Origin: a virus | Virus record (IMG/VR): IMGVR_UViG_3300044568_002423 | Direction: 5' to 3' (one strand) | Length of the DNA stretch: 64,000 nucleotides | Shown: one piece after another, positions 10,021-31,623 of the stretch | Layout of the letters: every line of letters begins with the position of its first letter | How positions within the stretch are numbered: the stretch's first letter is position 1 | Made by a program: the position numbers and the translations under genes | The notes under the pieces: generated by a model | Seen by the model: the letters and a program-made list of their open reading frames with translations, nothing else | What the model was told of the DNA's origin: nothing | The model's database searches: none

Positions 10021-10023
10021 AAT

Positions 10024-10535: not shown

Positions 10536-11849
10536 TTAATTACCAGCTGATTTAGGTGGAACTTCTGTTGGGTCAACTTCTATTAACGCAAATTTAAATG
10601 CCTTACCGGTTTTATTATTGGTTAGATAAAGGTTTTCTTCACCTTCAATCATGGTATAATCACCTATGCCATTACTTAGATGTAAATCTTGTGTGTAGAT
10701 GTTTCGCCATCTTAAACTACTTGTTCCTAAATCATACGTGTTCGTAGCAGCAGGTACCAGCATACCATCAGTTTGCCATCCACCTCGATATTGCGGTCCA
10801 GTGCTATAATTACCGGTTGTAAAAAATCCCAATGCGGTACCATCCGATCCATTTTCAGCACATACTATTGCCGCTTGTGTATTACCAGCACCTTGCGTAA
10901 AACTAATTCCATACTGTTTAGTAGCAGTTGCACTAGTTCCACCAGTAGCGGAAGAAATATGTAAATCCAATTTAGTAGAAGTTGTAATACTACCAAATCT
11001 TGTACCACCCGAATCAACCCCACCGGATGGTTTATTAATTGTCAATATACTACCAGTTAACGTCATGGTATTCGTAGTACCACCATACCATCTGTGATTG
11101 TCCCCAGTGGTAGGAACGCTATACCACAATGTGCTGCTATCCATACCCATTGCAAAATCAACGGCAGATGCTGAAATATTTGGATAAAATACGATCTTTG
11201 TGCCAGCAGCTCGTGTAGTAAATGCTGGAGCAGCAAGCCCATTTGTATTAAAATCTATTCGATTACCAGTAGTGCCATTTAAATACAATTGGCCACTACC
11301 AGTAGCGGCATTATTGGCAGCAGTTGATTGGATTTGTCCAGTAGAAGCAGTCAGGGTAGTAAATTTTCCTGATCCTGCTACAGTTACTCCAACATTAACA
11401 TTATCCATTGTTCCAGTAGTAGCTGGGTTGATAGTAACCACGCCAGAACCACTTGGGCTAATTACAACATTGGCATTAGCGGGACTTAAGGCGACTGCCG
11501 CACTAGCATTAATAGTTGTGGCCACTAATGCCCCACCATTTTCATTAATTATAACATAATTCGTACCATCTGATGCCAAGGTAATGGTAGTTAGTGTTGG
11601 AATGGTTTGTGAACTAGTTCCAGAACTACTCGGTCCTTTAAATATACCGGATGGCGTAGTGATTGTAATTACTCCAGCGGTGGCATTATAGAATGTCTGT
11701 GTTTCTCCAAAATAAATAGTTGGATTTGGTATGGTTACTGTGTAGGGTGCCGTACCGGTAAACTGGGTAAATAACCCCTGCGCGGGAACCGCGACGGTTC
11801 CCGTTGAAGTAACTGTATTTGCCGATGATACGGTATTATATCTTGCCAT
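10536..11849 (-). CDS. Tail/fibre protein, copy B (shared N-terminal ~260 aa; C-terminus with DLGTSSLRWRNIYTQDLHLSN...IEGEENLYL)
   Basis: Thr/Gly/Ser-rich beta-fibre composition; N-terminal half nearly identical to 30489..31598; C-terminal motif of a type seen at the ends of aquatic-phage fibres. Confidence 0.75.
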   Translation of the reverse strand: MARYNTVSSANTVTSTGTVAVPAQGLFTQFTGTAPYTVTIPNPTIYFGETQTFYNATAGVITITTPSGIFKGPSSSGTSSQTIPTLTTITLASDGTNYVIINENGGALVATTINASAAVALSPANANVVISPSGSGVVTINPATTGTMDNVNVGVTVAGSGKFTTLTASTGQIQSTAANNAATGSGQLYLNGTTGNRIDFNTNGLAAPAFTTRAAGTKIVFYPNISASAVDFAMGMDSSTLWYSVPTTGDNHRWYGGTTNTMTLTGSILTINKPSGGVDSGGTRFGSITTSTKLDLHISSATGGTSATATKQYGISFTQGAGNTQAAIVCAENGSDGTALGFFTTGNYSTGPQYRGGWQTDGMLVPAATNTYDLGTSSLRWRNIYTQDLHLSNGIGDYTMIEGEENLYLTNNKTGKAFKFALIEVDPTEVPPKSAGN

Positions 11850-11874
11850 TTATTTGTTCTCGTTAAAGGTAGTA
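11080..11874 (-). repeat. Long direct repeat, copy B (pairs with ~30832-31623)
   Basis: High nucleotide identity, including a perfect 124-bp block (11531-11654 = 31280-31403) and 25 nt upstream of the ATG; left boundary approximate. Confidence 0.9.
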
Positions 11875-11882
11875 TTATATTA

Positions 11883-11890
11883 TATTTATC
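11883..11890 (-). promoter_or_regulatory. Late-type promoter GATAAATA for the fibre B / C1q / halogenase operon
   Basis: Motif lies 33 nt upstream of the ATG at 11849; the same motif heads most operons in the window. Confidence 0.65.
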
Positions 11891-11994
11891 ATAATATTTC
11901 AACACCATAGTTTTGTATATAATGTAAAATTTCATTTGTGTCCCCACCGGTAAAATTAAATGATATATAGTTGTATAATATATTAGGAGAAACT

Positions 11995-12300
11995 ATGACA
12001 CATATTATACCGATTCGAGATCGTTTACTAGTAAAAAAGATTGAAGACGAACTCAAAACAAAAACTGGGCTCATTCTTTCTGATGATACAAAAGAACGAC
12101 CCACAAAAGGCACAGTATTGGCATGTGGGGAAGGTAGATTAAATGATGATGGCAAACTTTTACCTATGATTATCAAATTGGGAGATACAATTTTATATCC
12201 AAAATATGCAGGTCACCCAATCAAAGTTGATAATGAGGAATATTTAATCCTCGACGAAGACGAAGTTTTAGGAATTTTAAAGGAAACTACAAATGGCTAA
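11995..12300 (+). CDS. groES: Co-chaperonin GroES (start revised to 11995)
   Basis: PIRDRLLVK...GLIL...GTVLACGEG...GDTILYPKYAG...EYLILDEDEVLG; AGGAGA SD before the ATG at 11995. Confidence 0.95.
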   Translation: MTHIIPIRDRLLVKKIEDELKTKTGLILSDDTKERPTKGTVLACGEGRLNDDGKLLPMIIKLGDTILYPKYAGHPIKVDNEEYLILDEDEVLGILKETTNG

Positions 12301-13957
12301 GGTTAATCATAGAGTAGTGGTCATGGGCCAAGAAAGTAGAGAAAGATTAGTAAAAGGTGTCAACATTTTAGGCGATGCCGTTAAGGTTACACTCGGCCCA
12401 AAAGGACGAAATGTAATAATACAGAGGCAATTTGGGGCACCGCACGTCACAAAAGATGGCGTTACTGTCGCTAAGGAAATATTTTTAAAAGATAAATTAG
12501 CAGATACCGGCGTGCGCATGATTAAACAAGCTGCAAGTCAAACATCAGATGATATTGGCGATGGTACTACAACAGCAACGGTATTGGCACAAGCAATGAT
12601 TCGTGAAGGAATGAAATTTGTATCAGCTGGAATTAGTCCAATCAATCTTAAACGTGGCATCGATAAAGCAGTAGCGGAAGTTATTGAAGAATTAGATAAA
12701 ATAAGCAAAGAATGCAGTGATCCAATAACAATCGCTCAGGTAGCATCTATATCTGCCAATAATGACAATGAAATCGGACAGTTGATTGCTGATGCGTTGA
12801 TAAAAGTAGGAAAACATGGCGTTGTTACTGTTGAAACTGGGTCTGGATTGAAGGATGAGTTAGCAATAGTAAATGGTTTGATGTATGACCAGGGATATTT
12901 GTCAGAATATTTTATCAATTCAGATAAACAACGATGTATATTGGAAAATCCATATATCTTAATTTGTGATAGACCAATCTTAAACATTAATGATGTTGTT
13001 TCCATTTTAGAAAAATTAGTTGGAACTAAAAGACCATTTCTTATTATGGCAGAAAGTGTTGAGGCAGATGTGTTGGCAACACTTGTTATCAATAACGTGC
13101 AGGGAAATATTGTCGCATGTGCGGTACGTGGACCAGATTGGAAGGGTGCTAGACGAAGCCAATTAATAGAAGACATTGCTATATTGACCGGTGGAAAAGT
13201 AATTTCTGATACCACTGGTAAACGTGTTGAAAATGCCGAATTGGAAGATTGTGGCCAATGTAATCGTATTGAAATCACAAGAGATTCAACTACCATTATT
13301 GGTGGACACGGAGATAAAGTCAAACTGGCTGCTCGTATAGCAGCTATTCAACATACACTTGATGATCCATCAAATGATGGTATATTTGGCAAAGATGATC
13401 ATAGAGAAAGAATAGCAAAATTGTCAGGCGGCGTTGGTGTCATTCGTGTTGGTTCTGCCACCAAAGTAGAATTAGGTGAGAAGAAAGATCGTATAGATGA
13501 TTCATTACACGCAACTAAATCAGCCATCGAAGATGGCATTGTTCCAGGTGGCGGAGTGTCCTATATTAGGGCGAAAGAAAAACTTAAGAATTTTAAAAGT
13601 ACCAATGAAGAACAAAATGCGGGAATTCAAATAGTACTTCGCGCTTTAGAAGAACCATTACGCCAAATTGCTTTTAATGCTGGTGATAGCCCAGATGTTA
13701 TAGTAAATAAAGTAACAGAAGGCGATGATGAGTTTGGTTATGATGCCAGTGATAGCAAGTTTGGAAATATGTTTGATATAGGGATTATCGACCCTGCTAA
13801 AGTTGTCAAAACAGCATTGATAAATGCTGCCAGTGTTGCTGGATTGCTATTAACTACCGACTGTGCTATATATGAAGATGAAGATGAACAAGATTTATCA
13901 ATTATCGGTCCTAGTACGCCAGCTGGACAACCATTACCAACACAATACAATCAATAA
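12293..13957 (+). CDS. groEL: Chaperonin GroEL
   Basis: VKVTLGPKGRNV, TKDGVTVAKEI, GDGTTTATVLAQA, GIVPGGG, IIDPAKV. Confidence 0.97.
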   Translation: MAKVNHRVVVMGQESRERLVKGVNILGDAVKVTLGPKGRNVIIQRQFGAPHVTKDGVTVAKEIFLKDKLADTGVRMIKQAASQTSDDIGDGTTTATVLAQAMIREGMKFVSAGISPINLKRGIDKAVAEVIEELDKISKECSDPITIAQVASISANNDNEIGQLIADALIKVGKHGVVTVETGSGLKDELAIVNGLMYDQGYLSEYFINSDKQRCILENPYILICDRPILNINDVVSILEKLVGTKRPFLIMAESVEADVLATLVINNVQGNIVACAVRGPDWKGARRSQLIEDIAILTGGKVISDTTGKRVENAELEDCGQCNRIEITRDSTTIIGGHGDKVKLAARIAAIQHTLDDPSNDGIFGKDDHRERIAKLSGGVGVIRVGSATKVELGEKKDRIDDSLHATKSAIEDGIVPGGGVSYIRAKEKLKNFKSTNEEQNAGIQIVLRALEEPLRQIAFNAGDSPDVIVNKVTEGDDEFGYDASDSKFGNMFDIGIIDPAKVVKTALINAASVAGLLLTTDCAIYEDEDEQDLSIIGPSTPAGQPLPTQYNQ

Positions 13958-13969
13958 TATACTATTGAC

Positions 13970-14007: not shown

Positions 14008-14442
14008 TTATGGCTTAACAGGCCAAACAGGATCCCATGGAAACTGTATTTGTGTCGGTAAATCACGCAAAGCTTGTCGATATTCAGCCCAAGCCGCAAT
14101 AGTTTCTTCTGTAAATCTACTTTGGGTAGATGGAAATTCAGTGAAATCACTTTCTAATAACAGTTGATTTCTTGTAGATATAACCTTTGCTTCAACTTCA
14201 TCTTGCTCAGGTGGCTGTGTTCTAAAATCACCCAATCCATGTTGTAATTCACCAAACTCTTCTGCTAATAATTTTTCGTATAACTCTTGTGCAAATTCAT
14301 TGTTTGCGTGAGGTGAGGTATAAAAGTCAGTGGCATTGACACATCCTTTAAATATAATCTTACACCATATTGCCTCTACCCCAATCATGTAGGCAGCTAG
14401 TGTAATTTCTTCTATATCATCTACTGTAAATTTCTTTACCAT
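14008..14442 (-). CDS. Phage tail-fibre assembly chaperone
   Basis: C-terminal RNQLLLESDFT...AWAEYRQALRDLP...FPWDPVWPVKP motif. Confidence 0.85.
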   Translation of the reverse strand: MVKKFTVDDIEEITLAAYMIGVEAIWCKIIFKGCVNATDFYTSPHANNEFAQELYEKLLAEEFGELQHGLGDFRTQPPEQDEVEAKVISTRNQLLLESDFTEFPSTQSRFTEETIAAWAEYRQALRDLPTQIQFPWDPVWPVKP

Positions 14443-14467: not shown

Positions 14468-14475
14468 TATTTATC
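14468..14475 (-). promoter_or_regulatory. Late-type promoter GATAAATA
   Basis: Just upstream of the fibre chaperone gene. Confidence 0.55.
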
Positions 14476-15127
14476 ATTTTTTATTACGCCACCCAATATT
14501 TAGCCGTTTATCATATGCGTATTCTGGATAATAAGGACCATTTTTATCAACAAAGTGAAAAAATGCCTGTACTTGGTAGGATTGAGTATCAGGTATATTA
14601 AATGGGGTACGCCAATGCTCTATTTCACATCCTCGATAAATTATCATATCACCTGGTTCTTGTATTAAGTATTTTCCTGGATTATTGGCGCTTACGAACT
14701 CACCATCTGGTCCGTGTACATCATGTGAATCTTTATCAACATACATCCCCCATCTATAATCAGCATCAACTTGTTTATAATTATATCCAAAACACACAGT
14801 GGTGCTTATTTCGCAGCTTTCTCTATCTTTGTGTCTAGGTAACTCCATGCCAGGTCGGTATACTCTATAATAGGTATAAGTGGGACACAATGATAAACCG
14901 GTATGTTCTTCCATATGAGGATGTAAAAAGTGAAGCATTGTTTCCATCAAGGTATCACTGTATACAGAATGAGCATCTTGTACCTGTGCATCCTGCCCTA
15001 CTTCTGGTGAAAACTCAGTTTCTTCTTTCAATAACGCGTATTTTGTAATAATACGACACACATCGGCTGGAATCACTTTTTTTAAATCTAAATATCGGTC
15101 TTGCTTGAAAGTATCTTTATTATTCAT
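14474..15127 (-). CDS. 2OG-Fe(II) oxygenase
   Basis: RHKDRESCEIS (HxD)...PGDMIIYRGCEIEHWR (distal His). Confidence 0.8.
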   Translation of the reverse strand: MNNKDTFKQDRYLDLKKVIPADVCRIITKYALLKEETEFSPEVGQDAQVQDAHSVYSDTLMETMLHFLHPHMEEHTGLSLCPTYTYYRVYRPGMELPRHKDRESCEISTTVCFGYNYKQVDADYRWGMYVDKDSHDVHGPDGEFVSANNPGKYLIQEPGDMIIYRGCEIEHWRTPFNIPDTQSYQVQAFFHFVDKNGPYYPEYAYDKRLNIGWRNKK

Positions 15128-15909
15128 CTAAATGGTTTTCCTAAATTCCATGCTACTAAACTATATCTAGTACCAAATGTAACTGGAGTTACTTGATGTT
15201 GAATATGGGATGGAAATACCACCACTGAACCTCTTGGTCGTATTTCCTTACAGGTATGATACCGATCAGGACGATGGGGACCTAAATCAAATCTTAAATT
15301 TCCACCTTTATATTCAGTTGGCTCGTTTAAGCTGATAGTAACACTTAGTTTTCGTATTTTTCCAATCATTTTCTCATTAGTGGTCGCAGTATGATCTTCT
15401 GGCATTGGCTCACCAAATAAATCCAACATCGTGGTACCATCTGTATTTTTATGATACAAATCTACTTCTGGATTCAACTGTCTATATGGTTTTTCACTAC
15501 AGTCGGCGTGCCATCCATAGAATTGTCCAACATTATATTTTGTAAATTGAAAATCTTCAGTATAATCCCAATCAAAATTCCAATTTGCTTGTGCGTTTGC
15601 CTCATGTATATATGGCCATATAAGATCATAAAGGCGCGAGTCACTTAAAAAAGTTACTTTCGAATCCCTGACATAAGCTTTTTCCAAATCAACTTTATTT
15701 TTCATAAGATTACTAACTGATTTGGAATTGACAGGTTCCCCACTTAATGTGTTCTTCTGCTTCCAACCACTAGTTGAACCATCCGTGGCCGTCGAACCAT
15801 ATTTTAGCTGCTGCTCGTGCATTTGGGTTATACCCATTTCAAGAATTTGGTCACAAATTTCCGGGGGAATTACCGATTTAAAAAACCAATAATTGTATTC
15901 TAAGATCAT
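15124..15909 (-). CDS. 2OG-Fe(II) oxygenase, prolyl-4-hydroxylase/PKHD-like
   Basis: QFTKY...YGWHAD...RKLSVT...GGNL...FPSHIQHQVTPVTFGTRYSLVAW. Confidence 0.9.
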   Translation of the reverse strand: MILEYNYWFFKSVIPPEICDQILEMGITQMHEQQLKYGSTATDGSTSGWKQKNTLSGEPVNSKSVSNLMKNKVDLEKAYVRDSKVTFLSDSRLYDLIWPYIHEANAQANWNFDWDYTEDFQFTKYNVGQFYGWHADCSEKPYRQLNPEVDLYHKNTDGTTMLDLFGEPMPEDHTATTNEKMIGKIRKLSVTISLNEPTEYKGGNLRFDLGPHRPDRYHTCKEIRPRGSVVVFPSHIQHQVTPVTFGTRYSLVAWNLGKPFR

Positions 15910-16538
15910 TTAAATAATGCTCCATGTACATGACCAATTATGATGTGATTAGTGCCTTTAGTAACCGGAGTAATTCTATAAGGCATAAATGATGGGAATA
16001 TTAAACAGTGTCCTTGCGTAGATATACCTGATTCAGACGTATCAACGTTTAAAAATTCAATTTTCCCACCTTCATAATCATCTGGATTAGACAAATTAAC
16101 AATAAATGAAATTTTTCTAGATGGTGCCATTGGACTTATTTCAATATGCCAATTATAATAATCTTTTTCCGAATACTTGAATATTTGTGGAAAATCTTGA
16201 TCAATAATTCCTAATAGATTAAAGTCATAAATTGTATCGTTGGCATTTTTGGTTATTGTTCTAATATCCATGAATGGATATCCCTGAACATCGCCACGTA
16301 ATTTTTGGCGTTTGGCCAAATGTAAAGCAGTATCGCCAATTATTCTAGCGGGCAACCATAGCTCCTCTATACAATTTTCTAAAATACCGTTGCATTGTTC
16401 TTCAGTGAACAGTTCAGCTTTATTAATCGATACTATGTCTAAAGATGCCAATTCAGTTGGTTTAGTCGCTGCCAAATCTGTAAAACTACTGTCTGATATA
16501 GGCGCGTCTGGTTCGTTATTAGTCATAAAATACTCCAT
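15906..16538 (-). CDS. PKHD-like 2OG-Fe(II) oxygenase paralogue with degenerate active site
   Basis: YNWHIE...RKISF...GGKI...FPSFMPYRITPVTKGTNH: distal His replaced by Tyr, 2OG-binding Arg replaced by Asn. Confidence 0.75.
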   Translation of the reverse strand: MEYFMTNNEPDAPISDSSFTDLAATKPTELASLDIVSINKAELFTEEQCNGILENCIEELWLPARIIGDTALHLAKRQKLRGDVQGYPFMDIRTITKNANDTIYDFNLLGIIDQDFPQIFKYSEKDYYNWHIEISPMAPSRKISFIVNLSNPDDYEGGKIEFLNVDTSESGISTQGHCLIFPSFMPYRITPVTKGTNHIIIGHVHGALFK

Positions 16539-16552
16539 TGTTTATTTTATAT

Positions 16553-16613
16553 TACTTATACAAATAACAACAGGTAATAAAAATTTATATCACTGTTTGT
16601 AAGCTAATAAATA
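16553..16613. promoter_or_regulatory. Divergent late-type promoters (TATAAGTA on - at 16553-16560; AATAAATA on + at 16606-16613)
   Basis: Located in the 100-bp gap between the divergent oxygenase and halogenase operons. Confidence 0.5.
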
Positions 16614-16638
16614 CCTCAATTAACACACATAAGGAAAT

Positions 16639-17244
16639 ATGTTAGATAAAATAACCCGTGCGCCGGTGACCATATATCAAAATGAACATGACCATATAGA
16701 GAAATTTGTAATGGGTCCCACCTTTCCTTGGTATTGGCAAAATCAACAGACATTCAATACTGAAGAATTTTATAATGAAAATTTACCCGAATGGCTATTA
16801 CCTCACCTAACACATTACAACGCACCATTTCTAAGTCATACCTTGTTACGTCGGTCAGATGATGAAAATGTAAACCATCTAGAACGTCATGCTAGTGATT
16901 TTTCACCACATTATGAATTTTTTATGGAAATATTTCATAGATTTACAGTAGAGCAAGGCATACCATATAGGAAAATATTTCGTGCTAATCTCAATTTAAA
17001 CTGGTATAATGGAGATTATCACACTGAACCACATTATGACCATGCATGGCCGCATCATAATTTTATCATGTATCTCACTAGTTGCGAACATGGACAAACC
17101 ATTCTTTGGCCACCTGACTTTTTAACTAGTTATTTGGTACCGTGTGAACAATACACAGCTGTTGCTTTTAGACAACAATGGCACGCTCATAGATATCCAG
17201 CACAAGGAGACAAACGTATTGTGTTTGTCGTCACATATATATAA
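16639..17244 (+). CDS. 2OG-Fe(II) oxygenase-fold protein
   Basis: FPWY...TEPHYD (HxD)...IMYL...GQT...WHAH...KRIVFVVTY. Confidence 0.75.
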   Translation: MLDKITRAPVTIYQNEHDHIEKFVMGPTFPWYWQNQQTFNTEEFYNENLPEWLLPHLTHYNAPFLSHTLLRRSDDENVNHLERHASDFSPHYEFFMEIFHRFTVEQGIPYRKIFRANLNLNWYNGDYHTEPHYDHAWPHHNFIMYLTSCEHGQTILWPPDFLTSYLVPCEQYTAVAFRQQWHAHRYPAQGDKRIVFVVTYI

Positions 17245-17257
17245 ATTAGGGAATTAA

Positions 17258-18820
17258 ATGAATATAGTTATAGTAGGAGGAGGAACTGCTGGTTGGGTTT
17301 CAGCATTAATGGCAAGCAGTCGTTTCCCAGAACATACAATTACCGTCATAGAATCGACAAAGATAGGAATAGTTGGTGTTGGAGAAAGCACGACGGGCAG
17401 ATTGACAGATGTATTAATCAACTTTGCTTATGAATATGGGTGTGACCACGACGAATTTATAGCCGAGACTGGTGCTACGTTAAAATATGCTATTAATCAC
17501 AAGGGGTGGACTAATGATATCAATCAAGCATACCTTGGTCCCATTGATGGAAGTTGGACTAGAGATAGTTCTCCAGATGCTATGTTTTCCTGGGGATTAA
17601 GTAATTTACAACATTCTAAATTGTTGTTAACTTCTAGAATGGGACATATGATAGACAGAGGTTCTTCAAATTTTAACAAGACTACTAATAAATTTTCTAA
17701 TTATGGACATGCCCTACATGTAGATGCACACCTCGTAGGGAAATATTTTAAGAAAGTCTGTATGCGAAATAACTCCAATACCAACCATATAGACAGCGAA
17801 GTAATTCAGGTAAATCTAAATTTAGAAAATGGATTTATTAAAAATGTAGTGTTATCGAATGGTGAAACAATAGAGGGAGATTTCTTTATAGATTGTTCAG
17901 GATTTAATAAAGTTTTAATGAACCAGTTATCTACCAAATGGATAAGCTATCAGAAAAATCTGCCGCTTAATACCGGTTTGCCGTTTTCTTTGACGTATAA
18001 AGAAGGGGAAATGCCATTACCCTACACAAATGCGTGGGCGCAGAAAAATGGATGGATGTGGCAAATTCCCTTAATGGACCGACAAGGATGCGGATATGTG
18101 TTCTGTGATGCGTTTACAACTCCAGATAAAGCACAAGAAGAAATAGAAACCATTTTAGGACGTGAAATTGCCCCAGTAAAGGTTATAAAATTTGACGCCG
18201 GTAGACAAGAGTCAGCATGGGTTAAAAATTGCTTGGCGATTGGATTAGCGTCAGCATTCCTGGAACCATTGGAAGCAACTTCCATTCATGCGACCATTGT
18301 CCAAGCCCACAATTTTGTATTTGAATATTTAAAGCCGACATTATATGATACAATTAACGAAGGTTCTAGACGTATTTACAATCAACGCACTCGTGCTATG
18401 TATGACGATGTAAAAGATTTTCTAGTAATGCATTATATGGGTGGCAGGAACGATAGTGAGTTTTGGAAAATGATAGGAACTGGCGTGACAAAAACTGATT
18501 ATGTAGAAGACCTATTACATATGGCAAAATCCAAAGTGCCATCTAATAATGATTTCCCAAATTATTCCGGGTCAGCAGGTTGGCCATTATATAGTTTTGT
18601 TATGGCTGGTCTCAACCTAATTGATAAAAACGCAGCTGCAAATGAATTAGAAATGATAATACCAGAATATGGAGATTTGCGCTCGATAACAACCGAAGTG
18701 TATTATGACATGCAAGATAGATGGGATGGTGAATTGAAAGCTAACTATTCATATAATGATTTTATAAAATATTTTAGAAATATACGAGGGGATAATGGCT
18801 TTTCAGATATCAAATATTAA
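17258..18820 (+). CDS. Flavin-dependent tryptophan-halogenase-family protein (4 of 7)
   Basis: GGGTAGW, GVGESTT, ATLKYAI, WMWQIP, FLEPLEATSIH. Confidence 0.9.
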   Translation: MNIVIVGGGTAGWVSALMASSRFPEHTITVIESTKIGIVGVGESTTGRLTDVLINFAYEYGCDHDEFIAETGATLKYAINHKGWTNDINQAYLGPIDGSWTRDSSPDAMFSWGLSNLQHSKLLLTSRMGHMIDRGSSNFNKTTNKFSNYGHALHVDAHLVGKYFKKVCMRNNSNTNHIDSEVIQVNLNLENGFIKNVVLSNGETIEGDFFIDCSGFNKVLMNQLSTKWISYQKNLPLNTGLPFSLTYKEGEMPLPYTNAWAQKNGWMWQIPLMDRQGCGYVFCDAFTTPDKAQEEIETILGREIAPVKVIKFDAGRQESAWVKNCLAIGLASAFLEPLEATSIHATIVQAHNFVFEYLKPTLYDTINEGSRRIYNQRTRAMYDDVKDFLVMHYMGGRNDSEFWKMIGTGVTKTDYVEDLLHMAKSKVPSNNDFPNYSGSAGWPLYSFVMAGLNLIDKNAAANELEMIIPEYGDLRSITTEVYYDMQDRWDGELKANYSYNDFIKYFRNIRGDNGFSDIKY

Positions 18821-20080: not shown

Positions 20081-20088
20081 GACAATAC

Positions 20089-21552: not shown

Positions 21553-21553
21553 G

Positions 21554-23329: not shown

Positions 23330-23336
23330 ATGTGAA

Positions 23337-23378
23337 TATTTATAAAATAACAATACCGGTATGAAAAAAACATAAGTA
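23337..23378. promoter_or_regulatory. Divergent late-type promoters (TATAAATA on - at 23337-23344; CATAAGTA on + at 23371-23378)
   Basis: Exact T4 late consensus on the minus strand, variant on plus, within a 69-bp divergent gap. Confidence 0.6.
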
Positions 23379-23398
23379 TTAATTATAAGAGGACATTC

Positions 23399-24865: not shown

Positions 24866-25596
24866 AGGTAGTAAATTGGTCATTTCTTACTAGTCATGAA
24901 TGGGATATAGATCATACCCCATGTGTTAAAACATTAATGAATGATTATTATCCATTTGGTTATTTACCAAAAGAAGTTATATCGATACGACAAGATGCCG
25001 TGTTTTTAAAGTGTCCAAGTCATACTGACTTTTTAAAAAACACATATATCTTACAGGCACCTTTTGATTTAACTATCGAGATTGACATAAATGAACGTAG
25101 TCATTATAAAGTAGTCTGTGAAAATATCAGTCAGGAGGTATTTGAACATCTAATAGACATACGATTTTTAGATGATTACAATTCTGAAACTAATATCTTT
25201 CCAGTGATTGGAATTGATTGGTTGACAATATTGACATGTGACGAATCGATGTTATTACAAGTAATGCCAGCATTTATGCACCGTAATGATTTTACAGAAA
25301 AGACAACTCTAATCCCTGGAGAATTTGATATAAGCAAATGGACACGACCAGTTGAGATTGTCTTTGAAATAAAAAGCAACAAAGAAAAAATTGTAATAAA
25401 AAAAGGTGATGCCATCGCATACTTTAAGTTTCACAGTAATGAATCCATAAAATTAGTAGAACAACCAACTCCATGGGAAGAAATTAAACTATGTAATTCA
25501 ATTCGTCAACAAAATAAATTTAGACCGTTGAAAGAACGCTATGCTTCATTGGAAAATGAACGAATTAAAAGGTGCCCCTATGAGCAAAAAAATTGA
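24862..25596 (+). CDS. Hypothetical protein, possibly DUF6065/dUTPase-like beta fold
   Basis: KCP...Y.L.APFD...IPG.FD..KW.RP...IKKGDAIAYF pattern; embedded between two halogenases. Confidence 0.45.
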   Translation: MKVVNWSFLTSHEWDIDHTPCVKTLMNDYYPFGYLPKEVISIRQDAVFLKCPSHTDFLKNTYILQAPFDLTIEIDINERSHYKVVCENISQEVFEHLIDIRFLDDYNSETNIFPVIGIDWLTILTCDESMLLQVMPAFMHRNDFTEKTTLIPGEFDISKWTRPVEIVFEIKSNKEKIVIKKGDAIAYFKFHSNESIKLVEQPTPWEEIKLCNSIRQQNKFRPLKERYASLENERIKRCPYEQKN

Positions 25597-27145
25597 TGAG
25601 ATAGTTATAGTAGGTGGCGGAAGTTCTGGATGGATAACTGCTGCCTCATTAATTACGCAATTAACAGGTAAAAAAATTACCGTAATAGAAAGTCCAAATA
25701 TTTCAACAGTTGGAGTAGGGGAGAGCACAGTTGGTGGGATCAGGGCATGGTTGAGAATGGTTGGTATTAGTGATAAGGACTTTATGGTTGCCACCGATGC
25801 CAGTTATAAACTAGCAATTAAGTTTACTAATTTCTACACGAAGGACAGTGGATCTTGGTATTATCCATTTGGAACAGCTTGTTTGAAAGATACCATGCAT
25901 GGACAAGATGATTGGTTTATCAAAAAGGCAATATATCCAAATACTAAATCGGTCGATTATGTCAATTCATATTATCCACAGATGGCACTAGTCAATGAAA
26001 ATAAAATGATGGTTAATGATGGATTGCTTGGCAATTTTGACTTCTATAACGATACGGCCTTTCACTTTGATGCTACCAAATTTGGAGCATGGCTGAGAGA
26101 TAATCATTGTATACCACGCGGAGTCAACCATATAGTAGATGAAGTAGTTGATATTACTAAAAATTTAGATGGCATAGATGAATTAATTCTACATTCAGGT
26201 AAAAGAGTGTCGGCAGATTTATTCGTAGATTGTACTGGATTTAACTCATTACTACTTGGTAGGACATTAAAAGTACCATTTAATAGTTTTGAACATATAC
26301 TACCTAATAATAGAGCATGGGCTACTCATATACCATATACCAATAAAGAAAAACAATTAAATTCAGTGACTGAATGTACAGCATTAGATAATGGTTGGGT
26401 TTGGAACATACCATTATGGAGCCATATTGGAACTGGATATGTATACAGTGATAAACATATATCACCAGAAAAAGCCAAGATGGATTTTATTACCCATTTA
26501 CAATCAAACGGATTTGATACCAGTTCCTGTATATTCAAGGATATACCGATGAAGATAGGAATGTATGAAAAATTATGGGTCAAGAATGTTGTAGCGATAG
26601 GATTAAGTGCTGCTTTTGTAGAACCGTTAGAGAGTTCAGGATTATTAACCACACATGATTTTGCTAGAACATTATGTAATATATTGCTAAGAGGACGAGT
26701 TAGTCAATGGGATCGTGATGAATTTAATTTAAAATGCGAGGATGAATTTAACTATTGGGCACAATTTGTATCAATGCATTATGCGTTAAGTCACCGTGAT
26801 GATTCTAAATATTGGAAAGATATAAGTGAGAAATCATATGTGGGATTAGTCAACACTGTCAATAAATTACAAACGCAAAGCTTATATCATCAAACCTTGT
26901 ATCAGAAAAATTTTGTAAAATATTTCCAAGATGACCCAGGTATAAATTGTTTAGCGGCAGGAATGAATTGGAATGCGAATGATATAACTACCCTTAATAA
27001 TATTTTTGCGGTAGGGACAGATCTCAAACATGAATTTTCAATTGTTATTGATAACTTATCTAAAAGAACCCAGAATTGGAAAAGGGCAGTAGAAACTGCC
27101 CCTTCATTGTATCAATATCTTAAAAATAAATTTTATATAAATTAA
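25580..27145 (+). CDS. Flavin-dependent tryptophan-halogenase-family protein (7 of 7; start revised to 25580)
   Basis: GGGSSGW, GVGEST, ASYKLAIKF, FHFDA, WVWNIP, FVEPLESSG. Confidence 0.92.
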   Translation: MSKKIDEIVIVGGGSSGWITAASLITQLTGKKITVIESPNISTVGVGESTVGGIRAWLRMVGISDKDFMVATDASYKLAIKFTNFYTKDSGSWYYPFGTACLKDTMHGQDDWFIKKAIYPNTKSVDYVNSYYPQMALVNENKMMVNDGLLGNFDFYNDTAFHFDATKFGAWLRDNHCIPRGVNHIVDEVVDITKNLDGIDELILHSGKRVSADLFVDCTGFNSLLLGRTLKVPFNSFEHILPNNRAWATHIPYTNKEKQLNSVTECTALDNGWVWNIPLWSHIGTGYVYSDKHISPEKAKMDFITHLQSNGFDTSSCIFKDIPMKIGMYEKLWVKNVVAIGLSAAFVEPLESSGLLTTHDFARTLCNILLRGRVSQWDRDEFNLKCEDEFNYWAQFVSMHYALSHRDDSKYWKDISEKSYVGLVNTVNKLQTQSLYHQTLYQKNFVKYFQDDPGINCLAAGMNWNANDITTLNNIFAVGTDLKHEFSIVIDNLSKRTQNWKRAVETAPSLYQYLKNKFYIN

Positions 27146-28257
27146 TATTTGATAATAACGACACCAGAACCACCATCGGCGCCGTGTTGTCCGCCGCCAG
27201 CACCACCGCCGGTATTTGCACCACCGTGTCCGCCACGAGCAGTTGGTTGGCCATCTTGCCCCGTTATAAGTGCCTGTCCACCACCAGACCCTAATTTAAC
27301 AGTTGCTCCATACGGTCCTCCGTGGTGGTGTCCTCCTCCTCCTCCGCCACCGATTCCCCCATCGGAAAATCCCCAGCCTAAATGTCCACCACCAGCGCCA
27401 CCGCCACCAAAGTATAACGTGCTTCCAAGAATATCACTCGCCCTTCCAGAACCACCATTAATCATATTACTTCTAAAACTTCCACGATAATTTTGCCTAC
27501 CATCCGGTGCACTACCACCCTGACCGCCAGCGCCACCGCCAGCCCCACCTTGATGAGTATTTTCAGTATCAATATTGAATCTAACACCAGAACCACCTGG
27601 ATAGCCCTGCCCAGTAGTTCCATATCCACCATAACATCTAGTTCTAGGATCAATTCCATCTCCGGTATTCGCACCGCCACCGCCACTTCCACCATTACGA
27701 CCAGAAGTTATACCATTATCACGAAATCCAGGACTGGTATGTGTCCATGAACCACCGCCACCACCGCCTGTTGCAGTAATGGATGAAAACACACTATTTC
27801 CACCACTTGGTCCAGCAACTGCGGGAGCTCTACCAGTGCCACCAGCGCCAACGGTAACTGGGTACGGTGTTCCAGCAGTTACTGGAAAGCTACGATTCAT
27901 AAGAACTCCACCGCCACCACCGCCGCCTGCCCAGTCATATCCACTAGAACCACCGCCGGCTACCACTAATACCTGTATATTACCAGTAAATGTTGGAGTG
28001 AATGTTGCTGCACCAACTGTAGTAAAAGTATGAATTATATTTGAACGATTGTAGGAAATAGTACCACCAGTTCCTACTACTCCCTGACTATATCCAGTTA
28101 CAGGACGCCAAAATCCACCATCATTAAATTCTAAAGTATTCTGTCCATTTGTAGTATTGTATCGTATTTTAGCAGTGCCAGTAACTGTACTAGTTGTGTT
28201 GGTTGGCATTGCTAATGCGGCGGTTGAATTTATTATAGTATTTTTTAAACTTGCCAT
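27142..28257 (-). CDS. Glycine-rich (polyglycine) adhesin-like protein, paralogue C
   Basis: HTFT..G..TF, VLVVAGGG, GGGGGG runs, VTVGAGG, GANTGGGAGGG, GGSGVVIIKY; gp38-like Gly-rich domain architecture. Confidence 0.75.
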   Translation of the reverse strand: MASLKNTIINSTAALAMPTNTTSTVTGTAKIRYNTTNGQNTLEFNDGGFWRPVTGYSQGVVGTGGTISYNRSNIIHTFTTVGAATFTPTFTGNIQVLVVAGGGSSGYDWAGGGGGGGVLMNRSFPVTAGTPYPVTVGAGGTGRAPAVAGPSGGNSVFSSITATGGGGGGSWTHTSPGFRDNGITSGRNGGSGGGGANTGDGIDPRTRCYGGYGTTGQGYPGGSGVRFNIDTENTHQGGAGGGAGGQGGSAPDGRQNYRGSFRSNMINGGSGRASDILGSTLYFGGGGAGGGHLGWGFSDGGIGGGGGGGHHHGGPYGATVKLGSGGGQALITGQDGQPTARGGHGGANTGGGAGGGQHGADGGSGVVIIKY

Positions 28258-28270
28258 TTATTTTCTCTTA

Positions 28271-29410
28271 TTAATATCTTACAATAACTATACCGGAACC
28301 GCCTGTGCCAGCCGTCCCATACGCTCCGCCGCCACCAGAACCTGTATTGACACCGCCATTACCACCAGTATTAGGATTCGTGCCAGGCGTACCAGCTCCA
28401 CCAGTGTTCAATGATTGTCCACCACCTAACCCATTGCCATGAGATGTAGTTGGCTGTCTTGGACCACCGTGTGATTGCGTACTACCGCCACCGCCACCAA
28501 TCCCTCCAGAGTTTGCCACTGTTGTGTTTCCTTGATGTTGAGACCCAGCGCCGCCGCCTGCCCAATACAGCGTATATCCCAAGATGTCATTTGCCGTACC
28601 TGGCCCACCATTTGACTGTAATCCTTGATGACAATCATCTTCGCCACTAAATCCCGGACCACCAGACCCACCTCCGCCTCCAGATTTATGAGAATCTTCT
28701 GCTTGACGATTAAATCTAATACCAGAACCGCCAGGAAATCCCTGTCCGGTAATTCCTCTACCGCCTAAATTTGTATTTCGGCTATCATTTGGTCCAGTAT
28801 GGCTATTTGATCCAGCGCCTGTACTACCAGTACATCCACCACCACCACTACCACCTGATTTTGCAGCATGTCCATCCCATGAACCAGCACCACCGCCGCC
28901 CGTTGCGGTAATAGAACCAAATACACTATTACTTCCAGGGTTTGAAGTGCCATATGCGGCAACTGCCGCACCGCCAGCGCCAACTGTAACTGGTATATTA
29001 GTACCACTTGTTACTGAATAGGAACGATTAAATGTCATTCCTCCAGCACCACCGCCGCCGCCTAAATGACCGCCACCTGTGCCACCACCGCCTATAACTA
29101 GTACTTCGACAGTACCACTAAATGCGGGAGTAAATGTAAAACTGCCAGCGGTGGTAAACATATGTACAACACCATTTGCTCGGCCAAGATTTGAGGTAGC
29201 ATACAAGATACTATCTCCACCTGTACCAATCGAACCCTTGCTCACTCCGGTAATTGGTCGCCATCCAGAACTGTCATAAAATTCTAATAAATTGTTAGTA
29301 TTGTTAACTCGTATCATCCCGGCAGTTGGGGATGGACGTTGTGATGTATCACCGACCGGCAATGTTAAATAGCCGGTATCATTAATAATTGTATCTCTGA
29401 AAATTGCCAT
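28271..29410 (-). CDS. Glycine-rich (polyglycine) adhesin-like protein, paralogue B
   Basis: N-terminal LPVGDTSQRP...GMIRVN...EFYD...W module plus Gly-rich domain ending GGSGIVIVRY. Confidence 0.75.
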   Translation of the reverse strand: MAIFRDTIINDTGYLTLPVGDTSQRPSPTAGMIRVNNTNNLLEFYDSSGWRPITGVSKGSIGTGGDSILYATSNLGRANGVVHMFTTAGSFTFTPAFSGTVEVLVIGGGGTGGGHLGGGGGAGGMTFNRSYSVTSGTNIPVTVGAGGAAVAAYGTSNPGSNSVFGSITATGGGGAGSWDGHAAKSGGSGGGGCTGSTGAGSNSHTGPNDSRNTNLGGRGITGQGFPGGSGIRFNRQAEDSHKSGGGGGSGGPGFSGEDDCHQGLQSNGGPGTANDILGYTLYWAGGGAGSQHQGNTTVANSGGIGGGGGSTQSHGGPRQPTTSHGNGLGGGQSLNTGGAGTPGTNPNTGGNGGVNTGSGGGGAYGTAGTGGSGIVIVRY

Positions 29411-29419
29411 TTATATTCC

Positions 29420-30484
29420 CTAATATCTCACTACCACTATACCGGACCCGCCAGTGACACCACCACCACCGCCAGCACCGCCGCCACCGCCTGTATTTGT
29501 ACCGCCAACACCACCGCCATTGCCATGTGTACCATTATTAGTGCCAGGACCGCCTTGATTTAAAGCCTGTCCACCGCCAAAACCAGTACTGTATGTTAAC
29601 GGAGTTCCTGGAAAATAATGAGCCGCTCCGCCACCGCCACCGCCTATACCGCCAAATCCGCCGCCACCATCACATATGTGAGGTCCACTAGCACCACCGC
29701 CAGCCCAATATAGTACGTCGCCTAATATATCACTAGCGGCACCAGGTCCGCCACTCGTTGCTGTTTGTTGATTTTCATCTTGTGCCGCCAAACCTGGTCC
29801 ACCAGCGCCACCGCCGCCACCGCCATTATGAGTATTTTCAGCATCGTCGTTGAATCTTACGCCAGAACCACCTGGAAATCCTTGACCGGTTAACCCAAGT
29901 CCACCAAAACTCCTGGCTCGACTCCCATCAGCATCAGTATTTGCACCTCCCCCGCCAGAACCGCCATTACACGCAGCTGGAGCTGCAGTATTATTCCACC
30001 AATTAGAATGGCCGCCACCTGTTGCGGTAGTTGAACCAAACGTGGTATTGCCGCCAGCAGCAGTTGAACCTGCTCCAACACTTAATGGTATACCAACCCC
30101 AGCGGTTACTGGATAGGCACGGTTAAAGATCATTCCGCCGCCACCACCGCCGCCGCCCCAACTACTATGCCCACCACCGCCGCCACCAGCAACTGTTAAT
30201 ACTTGAACATATCCGGTAAAAGTAGGAGTAAATGTAGCGGCGCCGACTGCTGTAAATTGATGAACAACCCCACCACCCAACAGTGATATGGAATTTCCAC
30301 CAGTTCCTATTGAGCCATTACTATAACCGGTGACGGGCCGCCAATTGGTGCCATCGTAATATTCCATAATGGTAATAGTTGTATTGTATCGCATCATTCC
30401 TCGTGTGGGAGATGCTGGACGTTGTGCGGTTGTGCCGGATGGAAGTGTTAAATCAGTAAACGTACTTGATAATAGAGTAGCCAT
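29420..30484 (-). CDS. Glycine-rich (polyglycine) adhesin-like protein, paralogue A
   Basis: N-terminal LPSGTTAQRP...GMMRYNT...EYYDG..W module plus Gly-rich domain ending GGSGIVVVRY. Confidence 0.75.
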   Translation of the reverse strand: MATLLSSTFTDLTLPSGTTAQRPASPTRGMMRYNTTITIMEYYDGTNWRPVTGYSNGSIGTGGNSISLLGGGVVHQFTAVGAATFTPTFTGYVQVLTVAGGGGGGHSSWGGGGGGGGMIFNRAYPVTAGVGIPLSVGAGSTAAGGNTTFGSTTATGGGHSNWWNNTAAPAACNGGSGGGGANTDADGSRARSFGGLGLTGQGFPGGSGVRFNDDAENTHNGGGGGGAGGPGLAAQDENQQTATSGGPGAASDILGDVLYWAGGGASGPHICDGGGGFGGIGGGGGGAAHYFPGTPLTYSTGFGGGQALNQGGPGTNNGTHGNGGGVGGTNTGGGGGAGGGGGVTGGSGIVVVRY

Positions 30485-30488
30485 AAAA

Positions 30489-31598
30489 TTATTTAGTGCC
30501 TTTTAATTGATCTATTTCCATTTTTAACATTTTCACTGCTTCTATCAAATATGCAGTAAATTTAGTATATTGAATACCATATGGTTTTCCCTGTTCATCC
30601 AATGTTACTATATCGGGTATTACTTTATAGACTTCTTCGGCAATTAAACCAGCTTCATTATAATGAGTTCCATCTTTGCGATCGTATGTCACACCAGTCA
30701 ATCGTGAAATTGTATTTAACGCATCAGTTATTGGATTGACATTTTCCTTAATGGCGATACTTGATTGTTCAGTAAAGGTACTAGATATTGTTAGAGCACC
30801 AGCGCCAGATAATGTCATGATATTAGAAGCGGCGGCGTACCATTTATGACTAGCACCACTGTTGGAAACACTATACCATAACTCACTACCTGCCATGCCC
30901 ATTGCGTAATCTGTCTGTGTAGCAGATATATCGGGGTAAAATACGATCTTTGTTCCAGCAGATCTAGTAGTAGTTGCCGGAACAGCAGTACCAGCAGTAC
31001 TAAAATCTATTCGATTACCAGAAGTGCCATTTAAATACAATTGGCCACTACCAGTAGCGGCATTATTGGCAGCAGTTGATTGGATTTGTCCAGTGGCCGT
31101 AACTGAACTAAAACGCCCAGTACCCGCAGTTGTTGCACCAACATTAACATTATCCATTGTTCCAGTAGTAGCAGGACTAATAGTAACCACCCCAGTTCCA
31201 CTTGGGCTAATTACAACATTGGCATTAGCGGGACTTAATGTAACTGCCGCACTAGCATTGATAGTAGTAGCTACTAAAACCCCACCATTTTCATTAATTA
31301 TAACATAATTCGTACCATCTGATGCCAAGGTAATGGTAGTTAGTGTTGGAATGGTTTGTGAACTAGTTCCAGAACTACTCGGTCCTTTAAATATACCGGA
31401 TGGAGTTGTAATTGTAATTACCCCAGACGTGGCATTATAGAATGTCTGTGTTTCTCCAAAATAAATAGTTGGATTTGGTATGGTTACTGTGTAGGGAGCC
31501 GTACCGGTAAATTGAGTAAATAAACCTTGTGCGGGAACCGCAACTGTGCCGGATGCAGTGACTGTATTTGCTGATGCTATGGTATTATATCTTGCCAT
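30489..31598 (-). CDS. Tail/fibre protein, copy A, with C-terminal intramolecular chaperone (peptidase S74) domain
   Basis: SSIAIKENV...L.GVTY...GLIAEEV...P..V...IQY......LIEAVK.L..EI..LK. Confidence 0.85.
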   Translation of the reverse strand: MARYNTIASANTVTASGTVAVPAQGLFTQFTGTAPYTVTIPNPTIYFGETQTFYNATSGVITITTPSGIFKGPSSSGTSSQTIPTLTTITLASDGTNYVIINENGGVLVATTINASAAVTLSPANANVVISPSGTGVVTISPATTGTMDNVNVGATTAGTGRFSSVTATGQIQSTAANNAATGSGQLYLNGTSGNRIDFSTAGTAVPATTTRSAGTKIVFYPDISATQTDYAMGMAGSELWYSVSNSGASHKWYAAASNIMTLSGAGALTISSTFTEQSSIAIKENVNPITDALNTISRLTGVTYDRKDGTHYNEAGLIAEEVYKVIPDIVTLDEQGKPYGIQYTKFTAYLIEAVKMLKMEIDQLKGTK

Positions 31599-31623
31599 TT
31601 ATTTGTTCTCGTTAAAGGTAGTA
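30832..31623 (-). repeat. Long direct repeat, copy A (pairs with ~11080-11874)
   Basis: See copy B; offset 19749 bp at the start codons; left boundary approximate. Confidence 0.9.

What the first reader, a model, noticed from the sequence alone, without database searches (positions are those of the whole stretch)
10536..31623. Two alternative fibre cassettes built on a duplicated N-terminal anchor, each followed by a trio of tip paralogues
Seen: genes 10536..11849 and 30489..31598 share ~260 N-terminal residues and long nucleotide-identical blocks (124 bp perfect, including synonymous sites). They then diverge: one ends in an S74 chaperone, the other in a DLHLSN-type end. Copy A is followed by three polyglycine proteins and copy B by three C1q-like proteins, the same 1+3 layout with unrelated folds. 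Inference: both dock at the same virion site, giving mixed or alternative host-range fibres. Recombination between the direct repeats would delete or amplify the ~19.75-kb segment (Gly-rich tips, four halogenases, all oxygenases, groESL), acting as a host-range switch.
Basis: partly seen in the sequence, partly recalled or inferred. Interest (0 to 1): 0.8.

Follow-up and report, generated by a model that had tools for sequence, protein, structure and literature searches.

The report
Two phage fibre cassettes, one anchor
An uncultured giant phage carries two tail-fibre genes with the same attachment end but different outer ends and helper proteins, which probably gives it two ways to grip host cells; the design is known, but this version is undescribed.

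Summary
Genes 30489..31598 (A, 369 aa) and 10536..11849 (B, 437 aa) share 267 N-terminal residues at 83% identity, plus 25 nt of leader. The perfect 124-bp block and the ~19.75-kb spacing are both real.

A ends in an S74 intramolecular chaperone and is followed by three polyglycine proteins. B ends in the conserved C-terminal module of the cyanophage P-SCSP1u fibre and is followed by three proteins; the one I modelled has a gC1q fold.

The shared N-terminus folds as a gp10/gp9/CBA120-TSP4-type attachment domain under strong purifying selection (dN/dS 0.09), so docking at the same site is plausible.

Cassette A is ancestral: two relatives keep the same 1+3 layout, and a third fuses the glycine domain to the fibre. 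B is derived: a duplicated leader and anchor, a widely mobile tip, and its own late-promoter-like motif.

The copies exchange sequence by gene conversion. This shows in clustered differences (p<5e-5), discordance with B's orthologue, and breakpoints that differ among relatives.

The proposed deletion/amplification "host-range switch" is untested. A deletion would be one-way, so I rate it unlikely. Three further halogenases lie outside the repeat-bounded segment.

Verdict: a new variant of the known multi-fibre, shared-anchor design. Moderate interest.

The parts
30489..31598 (-). Fibre A (369 aa): shared anchor and shaft (residues 1-267) plus an S74 intramolecular chaperone (279-331). The predicted self-cleavage serines are at 279/280.
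31599..31623 (-). 25-nt leader identical in both copies. In copy A it begins inside the 3' arm of a 9-bp hairpin (31618-31639).
31653..31982 (-). 109-aa protein that always precedes the anchored fibre in relatives (60-74% identity). It has an ATAAATA late-promoter-like motif at 31983-31989. Paralogues precede other fibre genes.
27142..30484 (-). Three polyglycine (Pfam Gly_rich_2) paralogues of 354, 379 and 371 aa, 48-51% identical to each other, separated by gaps of 4-13 nt. Each has its own orthologue, in the same order, in relative L005.
10536..11849 (-). Fibre B (437 aa): the same anchor and shaft (1-267) plus a 170-aa tip. The tip ends in the conserved DLHLSN...EGEENLYL...KTGK.FKF module.
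11850..11890 (-). Copy B's duplicated 25-nt leader (11850-11874) and its own GATAAATA late-promoter-like motif (11883-11890).
8900..10533 (-). Three small paralogues of 169, 196 and 177 aa, tightly packed (gaps +2, +3, -4 nt). The 177-aa one was modelled and has a gC1q jelly-roll fold.
8245..8933 (-). Two overlapping small ORFs (130 and 98 aa) of unknown function. They link the C1q trio to the downstream halogenases in one gene string.
3696..8222 (-). Three Trp-halogenase-family paralogues directly downstream of cassette B and outside the repeat-bounded segment.
11971..13957 (+). groES-groEL pair, divergent from copy B.
14008..14442 (-). Tail-fibre assembly chaperone (Phage_tail_APC). In relative L001 its homologue sits directly after the anchored fibre.
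14474..27145 (.). Enzyme island: four Trp-halogenase-family genes, at least five 2OG-Fe(II) oxygenase-family genes, DUF6445 and unknowns. It is syntenic with the island in relative L005.

Best explanation
The window comes from an uncultured jumbo myovirus (GC 37%). It encodes two late receptor-binding fibre sets mounted on one kind of N-terminal attachment module. That module is a gp10/XD-like beta-sandwich (residues 7-105) plus a shaft reaching residue 267.

Cassette A is the ancestral one. Its fibre is folded by a C-terminal S74 intramolecular chaperone. If that chaperone cleaves at Ser279/280, the mature fibre is little more than the shared region. Three polyglycine proteins follow it. I infer they serve as adhesins on or beside this fibre, in the manner of phage S16 gp37-gp38.

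Cassette B is derived. A copy of A's leader and anchor was placed inside the neighbouring enzyme island. There it was joined to a horizontally mobile tip ending in the conserved C-terminal module also found on cyanophage fibres. Three gC1q-like proteins travel with it.

Both cassettes are probably expressed late and compete for, or share, the same docking site. This would give the virion two receptor specificities. The ~800-bp shared stretch is kept similar by selection on the docking domain and by repeated gene conversion, and it acts as a homology linker for exchanging tips.

Shown: the repeat, the domains, the folds, the synteny, the mosaicism and the purifying selection. Inferred: same-site docking, the trios acting as tips, and dual host range.
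For: The repeat and its mosaic structure are shown.

Domains: S74, with an alignment to the S16 gp37 chaperone covering the SS...K.N motif. The tip matches residues 992-1078 of P-SCSP1u fibre gp28 at E 2e-14, and 272 further proteins carry this end.

Folds: the anchor resembles Solidus gp83 (Z 13.6), a KP1 baseplate protein (10.4), CBA120 TSP4 residues 79-181 (9.8), T4 gp9 (8.6) and T4 gp10 (7.9). The 177-aa protein resembles C1QL3 (E 4e-9, TM 0.84).

The anchor family is large and always N-terminal, with diverse ends: 1,748 clusters. Of the 150 best hits, 97 start with the anchor motif; 17 of those have S74-type ends and 8 have DLHLSN-type ends.

Ancestry: L004 and L005 keep giant protein, 109-aa protein, S74 fibre, three orthologous glycine proteins and the same enzyme island. 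L001 keeps giant protein, 106-aa protein and an anchored fibre with a fused glycine domain. Copy B's homology starts inside copy A's hairpin arm.

Both copies are under purifying selection: dN/dS is 0.09 for residues 1-110, 0.19 for 111-190 and 0.23 for 191-266, while dS rises from 0.28 to 1.07 along the gene.

Gene conversion: in the 124-bp block A equals B, while B's 93% orthologue P0005 differs at residues 74, 88 and 89. Elsewhere P0005 matches B at 31 of 44 diagnostic sites, but it has an A-type tract at 207-232. P0177 has a 45%-identical docking domain, an A-type middle that includes A's one-codon deletion, and a 95%-identical B tip.

Promoter-like motifs: ATAAATA lies at 11883-11889 and 31983-31989. 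The motif is rarer than chance in the window overall, yet it sits before the structural genes.
Against: There is no direct evidence that either protein is in the virion or that they use the same dock. No multimer modelling, proteomics or reads were available. Copy B has no 109-aa partner gene of its own. The glycine proteins carry their own N-terminal motif (LTLPxGTTAQRP...W), shared with a 336-aa protein and found inside a 1347-aa protein, so they could be free-standing short fibres rather than caps on fibre A. They show no detectable sequence similarity to S16 gp38. No fibre-C1q fusion was found (weak evidence). Everything beyond residue ~140 of the fibre B model has low confidence. The host is unknown.
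Confidence: 0.6

Rival explanations
1. Recombinational host-range switch. Crossing-over between the direct repeats regularly deletes or amplifies the 19.75-kb segment, producing subpopulations with fibre B only, or with extra copies, as an adaptive switch.
For: The repeats are direct, ~820 nt long, and contain perfect blocks of 124, 72 and 68 nt. Exchange between the copies has clearly happened. A crossover would give an in-frame A5'-B3' hybrid at the ancestral position behind the 109-aa gene.
Against: No junction, circle or single-cassette close relative was seen. A deletion cannot be reverted without a donor. It would also remove groESL, four halogenases, the oxygenases and the fibre-assembly chaperone. 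The whole of cassette A plus the island is conserved in L005, and both copies are under purifying selection. The signal seen is patchy conversion, not crossover products.
Confidence: 0.1
2. The two fibres occupy different sites or serve different steps. The shared N-terminus would then reflect only the recency of the duplication and ongoing conversion, for example one fibre on the giant-fibre network and the other on the baseplate.
For: Jumbo myoviruses of this type have branched multi-fibre assemblies. The window encodes several giant fibre proteins and three paralogous 109-110-aa proteins that each precede a fibre gene. XD-type domains occur several times within one branched complex in CBA120.
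Against: The docking domain (residues 1-110) has the lowest dN (0.025) and the longest identical blocks. That is not what one expects if the two copies had adapted to different partners.
Confidence: 0.2
3. Copy B is a silent or decaying duplicate, or a reserve cassette used only as a recombination donor.
For: It lies outside the structural gene block, inside an enzyme island, and lacks the upstream 109-aa gene.
Against: The 437-codon ORF is intact. It has its own GATAAATA motif and dN/dS of 0.09-0.23. It has a 93% orthologue and a 75% relative in independent contigs. A tightly coupled downstream gene string follows it.
Confidence: 0.07
4. Assembly chimera: the second copy was created by mis-joining at a repeat.
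For: The window comes from a metagenome-type record, and no reads were available.
Against: The copies are only 85% identical, with unique flanks. The exact products of copies B and A are on record from 3 and 2 contigs respectively, the longest 171,632 bp. B-type anchors carrying B-specific substitutions occur on independent ENA contigs.
Confidence: 0.03

Closest known systems
Salmonella phage S16 (T2-type) long-tail-fibre tip: the gp37 trimer with its intramolecular chaperone, capped by the polyglycine adhesin gp38 (PDB 6F45; PMC6851490)
   Same: Cassette A has a fibre whose C-terminus aligns with the S16 gp37 chaperone region. Glycine-rich proteins are encoded immediately downstream. After chaperone release the fibre itself would have no separate receptor-binding head.
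   Different: There are three paralogous glycine proteins instead of one. They belong to Pfam Gly_rich_2 and show no detectable similarity to gp38. Their N-terminus is a beta-type LTLPxGTTAQRP motif, not gp38's tryptophan-tipped helical bundle. In relative L001 the domain is fused to the fibre.
Branched multi-tailspike phages with shared N-terminal attachment domains (CBA120 TSP1-4; T4 gp10/gp9 modules)
   Same: Residues 7-105 have the same beta-sandwich fold as CBA120 TSP4 residues 79-181, T4 gp9 and T4 gp10 (Z 7.9-9.8). Several receptor-binding proteins in one genome use related N-terminal docks with unrelated distal parts.
   Different: Here the two proteins share 267 residues at 83% identity with nucleotide-identical blocks, which marks a recent duplicate kept similar by conversion. 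The CBA120 proteins are anciently diverged paralogues. There is no sequence-level membership in those families.
Phage Mu G segment / P1 C segment alternative tail fibres (a constant S N-terminus with alternative Sv-U or Sv'-U' ends). Stated from my own knowledge.
   Same: One constant N-terminal fibre part is combined with alternative C-terminal parts, and each alternative brings its own accessory gene(s).
   Different: Mu and P1 switch by site-specific inversion, with one constant region and an invertase. Here the constant part is duplicated in direct orientation, both genes appear expressible at once, and no recombinase was found among the genes scanned.
Tail fibre gp28 of cyanopodovirus P-SCSP1u (PDB 8I4M; PMC10575957) and similar fibres of Prochlorococcus/Synechococcus phages
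   Same: Fibre B residues 348-425 match the extreme C-terminus of gp28 (E 2e-14). They also match ends of P-RSP2, P-GSP1, P-SSP3, S-WAM2 and S-RS29 proteins at 40-53% identity. In P-SCSP1u and S-WAM2 the next gene overlaps the fibre's stop codon, as it nearly does here.
   Different: The N-terminal docks are unrelated (T7-type in gp28). The distal part of gp28 was not resolved, so the function of this end is unknown. The downstream proteins show no sequence similarity to the C1q-like trio.

Membership tests
S74-type intramolecular-chaperone fibres (Pfam PF13884, Peptidase_S74) | Profile match above the curated threshold, at the C-terminus | tested here: met
   41 bits against a cut-off of 22, residues 279-331 of 369. 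19 PHROG tail-fibre families match the same end.
S74-type intramolecular-chaperone fibres (Pfam PF13884, Peptidase_S74) | Cleavage-site serine followed by the conserved K..N/D-I/V motif | tested here: met
   QSSIAIKENV at 278-287 aligns with SSDRRIKKDI of S16 gp37. The D and R positions are substituted.
S74-type intramolecular-chaperone fibres (Pfam PF13884, Peptidase_S74) | Autoproteolytic release after trimer folding | not testable with these tools
   Needs expression and mass spectrometry.
S16/T2-type gp38 polyglycine adhesin | Encoded directly downstream of a chaperone-bearing distal fibre gene | tested here: met
   Gaps of 4, 9 and 13 nt on the same strand.
S16/T2-type gp38 polyglycine adhesin | Sequence homology to gp38, including its N-terminal attachment domain | tested here: inconclusive
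   No PDB sequence match at E <= 1, although 6F45 (the S16 gp37-gp38 complex) is in that library. The Pfam hit is Gly_rich_2. The N-terminus carries a different motif.
S16/T2-type gp38 polyglycine adhesin | Polyglycine-II sandwich fold | not tested
gC1q/TNF-like jelly-roll domain | Ten-strand jelly-roll fold superposable on gC1q domains | tested here: met
   The model of 8900..9433 has pLDDT 82. Foldseek top hits are all C1q-family: 4qqp E 4e-9, TM 0.84 by target, rmsd 2.2 over 137 columns.
gC1q/TNF-like jelly-roll domain | Match to the Pfam C1q profile (PF00386) | tested here: not met
   No Pfam family at E <= 0.01 for any of the three. One homologue (P0174) has a precomputed PF00386 hit. The nearest Atlas clusters carry it in 14-24% of members.
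gC1q/TNF-like jelly-roll domain | Trimer formation (homo- or heterotrimer) | not testable with these tools
   No multimer prediction is available.
gp10/gp9/XD-type N-terminal attachment domain of baseplate-bound fibres and tailspikes | Fold similarity of the N-terminal domain | tested here: met
   Residues 7-105 have pLDDT above 90 over most of the stretch. Z is 13.6, 10.4, 10.3, 9.8, 8.6 and 7.9 to Solidus gp83, KP1 baseplate protein, Pa223 spike, CBA120 TSP4, T4 gp9 and T4 gp10.
gp10/gp9/XD-type N-terminal attachment domain of baseplate-bound fibres and tailspikes | Binds a defined partner on the baseplate or on another fibre | not testable with these tools
   The partner is unknown. The conserved upstream 109-aa protein and the giant fibre proteins are candidates.
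Invertible alternative tail-fibre systems (Mu Gin/G, P1 Cin/C) | Inverted repeats flanking the variable segment, plus a site-specific invertase | tested here: not met
   The repeats are direct. No recombinase family turned up among the genes scanned.

The most novel reading that the evidence does not exclude
The fibre cassettes and the halogenase/2OG-oxygenase/GroESL island form one functional unit. The enzymes would post-translationally halogenate or hydroxylate the fibre tip proteins (the Trp/His-rich loops of the polyglycine and C1q-like proteins), and the three C1q-like paralogues would form a heterotrimeric cap on the DLHLSN end. Three observations allow this. Cassette B runs without a break into three halogenase genes (gaps of -4 to +22 nt). 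The island is adjacent to the anchored fibre in relatives L001 and L005. Late-promoter-like motifs occur inside the island. Nothing tests it directly.
Probability: 0.12. Interest if true: 0.85.

Novelty: new variant of a known kind. Interest (0 to 1): 0.5.

Why it matters
Host recognition in uncultured jumbo phages is almost unknown. This locus defines a large, uncharacterised N-terminal fibre-anchor family (MARYNT-type): 1,748 clusters at 50% identity, with no match to the N-terminal anchor domain among 50,697 deposited phage genomes. It shows how such a phage gains a second receptor-binding set, by duplicating the anchor and capturing a mobile tip cassette. It also gives a clean natural example of concerted evolution between two fibre genes in one genome. 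The conserved DLHLSN end, shared with Prochlorococcus and Synechococcus phage fibres, and the C1q-fold trio are concrete targets for structural work. If the two sets do give dual specificity, the shared shaft is a natural splice point for understanding fibre modularity in aquatic phages.

Tried and rejected
- Megablast of 10-32 kb and 40-64 kb of the window against deposited phages found no match.
- No whole genome is held for the window.
I therefore could not fetch the contigs that carry the B orthologue P0005 (16,985 bp), P0177 (21,660 bp) or P0179/P0161 (257,797 bp). That would have been the direct test of one versus two cassettes in close relatives.
- The C1q-like protein and its alignment found no relatives in IMG/VR.
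- The single metagenome scan gave only five loci.
- The L005 record is not held as a genome, so the rest of that 81-kb contig could not be searched for a B cassette.
- A search for longer proteins carrying the C1q-like domain, which would reveal fibre-C1q fusions, found none. This is weak evidence, as the tool itself warns.
- The proteins encoded downstream of DLHLSN-type fibres in P-SCSP1u and S-WAM2 show no sequence similarity to the trio.
- Base composition does not mark cassette B or the island as foreign. The differences follow amino-acid content.
- The sigma-70 and terminator scans were at background level.
- The fibre B model beyond residue ~140 is too uncertain to interpret. Its weak resemblance to the T5 pb1 and T4 gp34 C-terminal regions (Z 4-5.5) is not used.

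Full report
**What is there**

The window is a structural and auxiliary region of an uncultured myovirus with GC 37%. No whole genome is held for it, and it has no nucleotide match among deposited phages. Its gp15-type tail-sheath stabiliser is closest to those of the jumbo phages Phosso, Atu_ph07 and PA5oct, at 30-35% identity. A relative's 141.6-kb contig is rated 38% complete. The phage is therefore probably a jumbo phage.

**The repeat**

Genes 30489..31598 (fibre A, 369 aa) and 10536..11849 (fibre B, 437 aa), both on the minus strand, share 267 N-terminal residues at 83% identity. Identity begins 25 nt upstream of both start codons and fades out around codon 267. Over 823 aligned nt there are 126 differences.

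The differences are strongly clustered. Perfect runs of 124, 72 and 68 nt occur. No shuffle in 20,000 reached a run of 124 nt, and a run of 41 identical third-codon positions has p = 5e-5. The start-to-start spacing is 19,749-19,752 nt.

**The two ends**

Fibre A ends in an S74 intramolecular chaperone (PF13884, residues 279-331). Its sequence aligns with the chaperone region of Salmonella phage S16 gp37 across the serine/lysine cleavage motif (the SS is at residues 279/280). If it cleaves as the family does, the mature fibre A is essentially just the shared region.

Fibre B continues for 170 residues. Its last ~80 residues match the extreme C-terminus of the solved-virion fibre gp28 of cyanopodovirus P-SCSP1u at E 2e-14. 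They also match protein ends in Prochlorococcus podoviruses and Synechococcus myoviruses at 40-53% identity. That part of gp28 was not resolved in the cryo-EM map, so its role is unknown. It is very conserved: 70-87% identity over ~70 residues in hundreds of proteins with unrelated N-termini. This looks more like an assembly or docking element than a variable receptor-binding surface.

**The shared module**

AlphaFold2 gives a confident model for residues ~10-140. Residues 7-105 superpose on the following:
- Acinetobacter phage Solidus tailspike gp83 (Z 13.6)
- a Klebsiella phage KP1 baseplate protein (Z 10.4)
- the Pa223 spike (Z 10.3)
- CBA120 TSP4 residues 79-181 (Z 9.8)
- T4 gp9 (Z 8.6)
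- T4 gp10 (Z 7.9)

This is the beta-sandwich used to hang fibres and spikes on baseplates or on each other.

An exhaustive profile-free search found 1,748 clusters related to the shared region. Of the 150 best hits, 97 begin at residue 1 with the same MARYN motif. These run from 147 to 1,287 residues and have diverse ends, including 17 S74-type and 8 DLHLSN-type. No deposited phage genome matched the N-terminal anchor domain; the only hit inside the shared region was to the shaft (residues ~167-271) in S-SCSM2R. Residues ~150-267 also recur inside giant fibre proteins.

**The trios**

Three Gly_rich_2 proteins, 48-51% identical to each other, follow fibre A with gaps of 4-13 nt.

Three small proteins, 26-35% identical to each other, follow fibre B with gaps of +2, +3 and -4 nt. 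The model of the third (pLDDT 82) hits only C1q-family globular domains at the top of the list (E 4e-9, TM 0.84). The Atlas gives C1q-bearing clusters as the nearest neighbours of the first.

**Which cassette is older**

Relatives L004 and L005 have this order: giant protein, 109-aa protein (74% identity), S74-ending anchored fibre (~45%), three glycine proteins that are one-to-one orthologues of the window's three in the same order (64, 70 and 65%), and then the same enzyme island.

Relative L001 has giant protein, 106-aa protein and an anchored fibre whose C-terminus is a fused glycine-rich domain. A fibre-assembly chaperone and an island of oxygenases and halogenases follow. That record holds only one anchor copy.

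Upstream of A, the shared leader begins inside the 3' arm of a 9-bp hairpin. B keeps only that fragment and has its own GATAAATA motif.

So A is ancestral and B is derived. B sits inside the enzyme island: there are four halogenases upstream of it and three more downstream in the same gene string.

**Exchange between the copies**

dS rises along the shared region from 0.28 to 0.43 to 1.07. dN/dS stays low at 0.09, 0.19 and 0.23. Both copies are therefore under purifying selection, and the 5' part is the most homogenised.

P0005 is an independent 93% orthologue of B from an ENA contig. It matches B at 31 of 44 sites where A and B differ, so the duplication predates that split. Inside the 124-bp perfect block, however, A and B are identical to each other while P0005 differs at residues 74, 88 and 89. 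P0005 also carries an A-type tract at residues 207-232.

P0177 has a 45%-identical docking domain, an A-type middle that includes A's one-codon deletion, and a 95%-identical B tip. P0179 carries a 75%-identical tip on an unrelated MGRRTSG-type N-terminus.

These are the marks of repeated gene conversion and tip shuffling with variable breakpoints in the shaft.

**Do the trios belong to the fibres?**

For the glycine proteins, the L001 fusion and the conserved order support a functional link. The S16 gp37(x3)-gp38 complex is a solved precedent for a chaperone-bearing fibre capped by a polyglycine adhesin (PMC6851490).

There are caveats. The window's proteins have no detectable similarity to gp38. 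They also carry their own N-terminal motif, shared with a 336-aa protein and with two internal sites of a 1347-aa protein. They may therefore be independent short fibres.

For the C1q-like proteins the only support is tight coupling and three contig-length coincidences between tip homologues and C1q homologues (16,985, 257,797 and 6,544 bp). No fused form was found.

**The switch idea**

A crossover between the repeats would give an in-frame A-B hybrid and delete 19.75 kb. Nothing I could access tests this. The deletion would be irreversible, it would remove conserved genes, and the evidence found is for conversion rather than crossover products. I put it at about 0.1.

An assembly artefact is unlikely. 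The exact B and A products are on record from 3 and 2 contigs respectively, and B-type anchors occur independently.

**Verdict**

This is a new variant of the familiar multi-fibre, shared-anchor design, in an uncharacterised and very large fibre family.

Noticed in passing
window 3696-8222 and 17258-27145: There are seven Trp-halogenase-family (PF04820) paralogues in 25 kb, 26-50% identical to each other. Three of them are co-oriented with cassette B and almost contiguous with it. One orthologue each of 20089..21552 and 23399..24865 is conserved in relative L005 (64-68%).
   Followed up: partly
window 31653-31982, 51772-52104, 60456-60788: A family of 109-110-aa proteins (MAT...TT.YT...N.S motif) precedes fibre genes three times in the window. 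It also precedes the anchored fibre in L001, L002, L004 and L005 (58-74% identity). There is no Pfam or PHROG annotation. It may be a fibre adaptor or chaperone.
   Followed up: partly
window 29420-30484 (N-terminus), 59443-60453, 52109-56152 (residues 1128 and 1284): A ~45-residue motif (LTLPxGTTAQRP...RYNT...W) heads the glycine proteins and a 336-aa protein, and occurs twice near the C-terminus of the 1347-aa protein. It matches the N-termini of several PHROG families of unknown function.
   Followed up: partly
window 14474-15127: A 217-aa protein with no Pfam hit matches PHROG 2954, annotated 'ferrochelatase', at E 2e-41. It lies between the fibre-assembly chaperone gene and the oxygenases.
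   Followed up: no
window, whole: ATAAATA is rarer than chance (23 matches against 46 expected). Yet on the coding strand it sits just upstream of most structural genes (for example 43077, 51400, 56253, 62968, 31983 and 11883) and of some island genes (14468, 16607). This fits a T4-type late promoter.
   Followed up: partly
L001 10001-12325: In this relative the anchored fibre (774 aa) carries the glycine-rich domain as a C-terminal fusion. A Phage_tail_APC chaperone follows, then an island that also holds a carbamoyltransferase and a glycosyltransferase-like gene.
   Followed up: partly
window 63023-63766: A 247-aa protein with NUMOD3 motifs, of the homing-endonuclease type, sits at the edge of the structural block.
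   Followed up: no
L009 4267-4719 (P-SCSP1u) against window 8900-10533: The gene overlapping the stop codon of the P-SCSP1u fibre encodes a 150-aa protein that starts MAINIDSG. The window's C1q-like proteins start MAIQGNG, MAINFST and MTIYFSSG. BLAST finds no similarity, but the shared N-terminal strand motif may be a docking element for the DLHLSN end.
   Followed up: no
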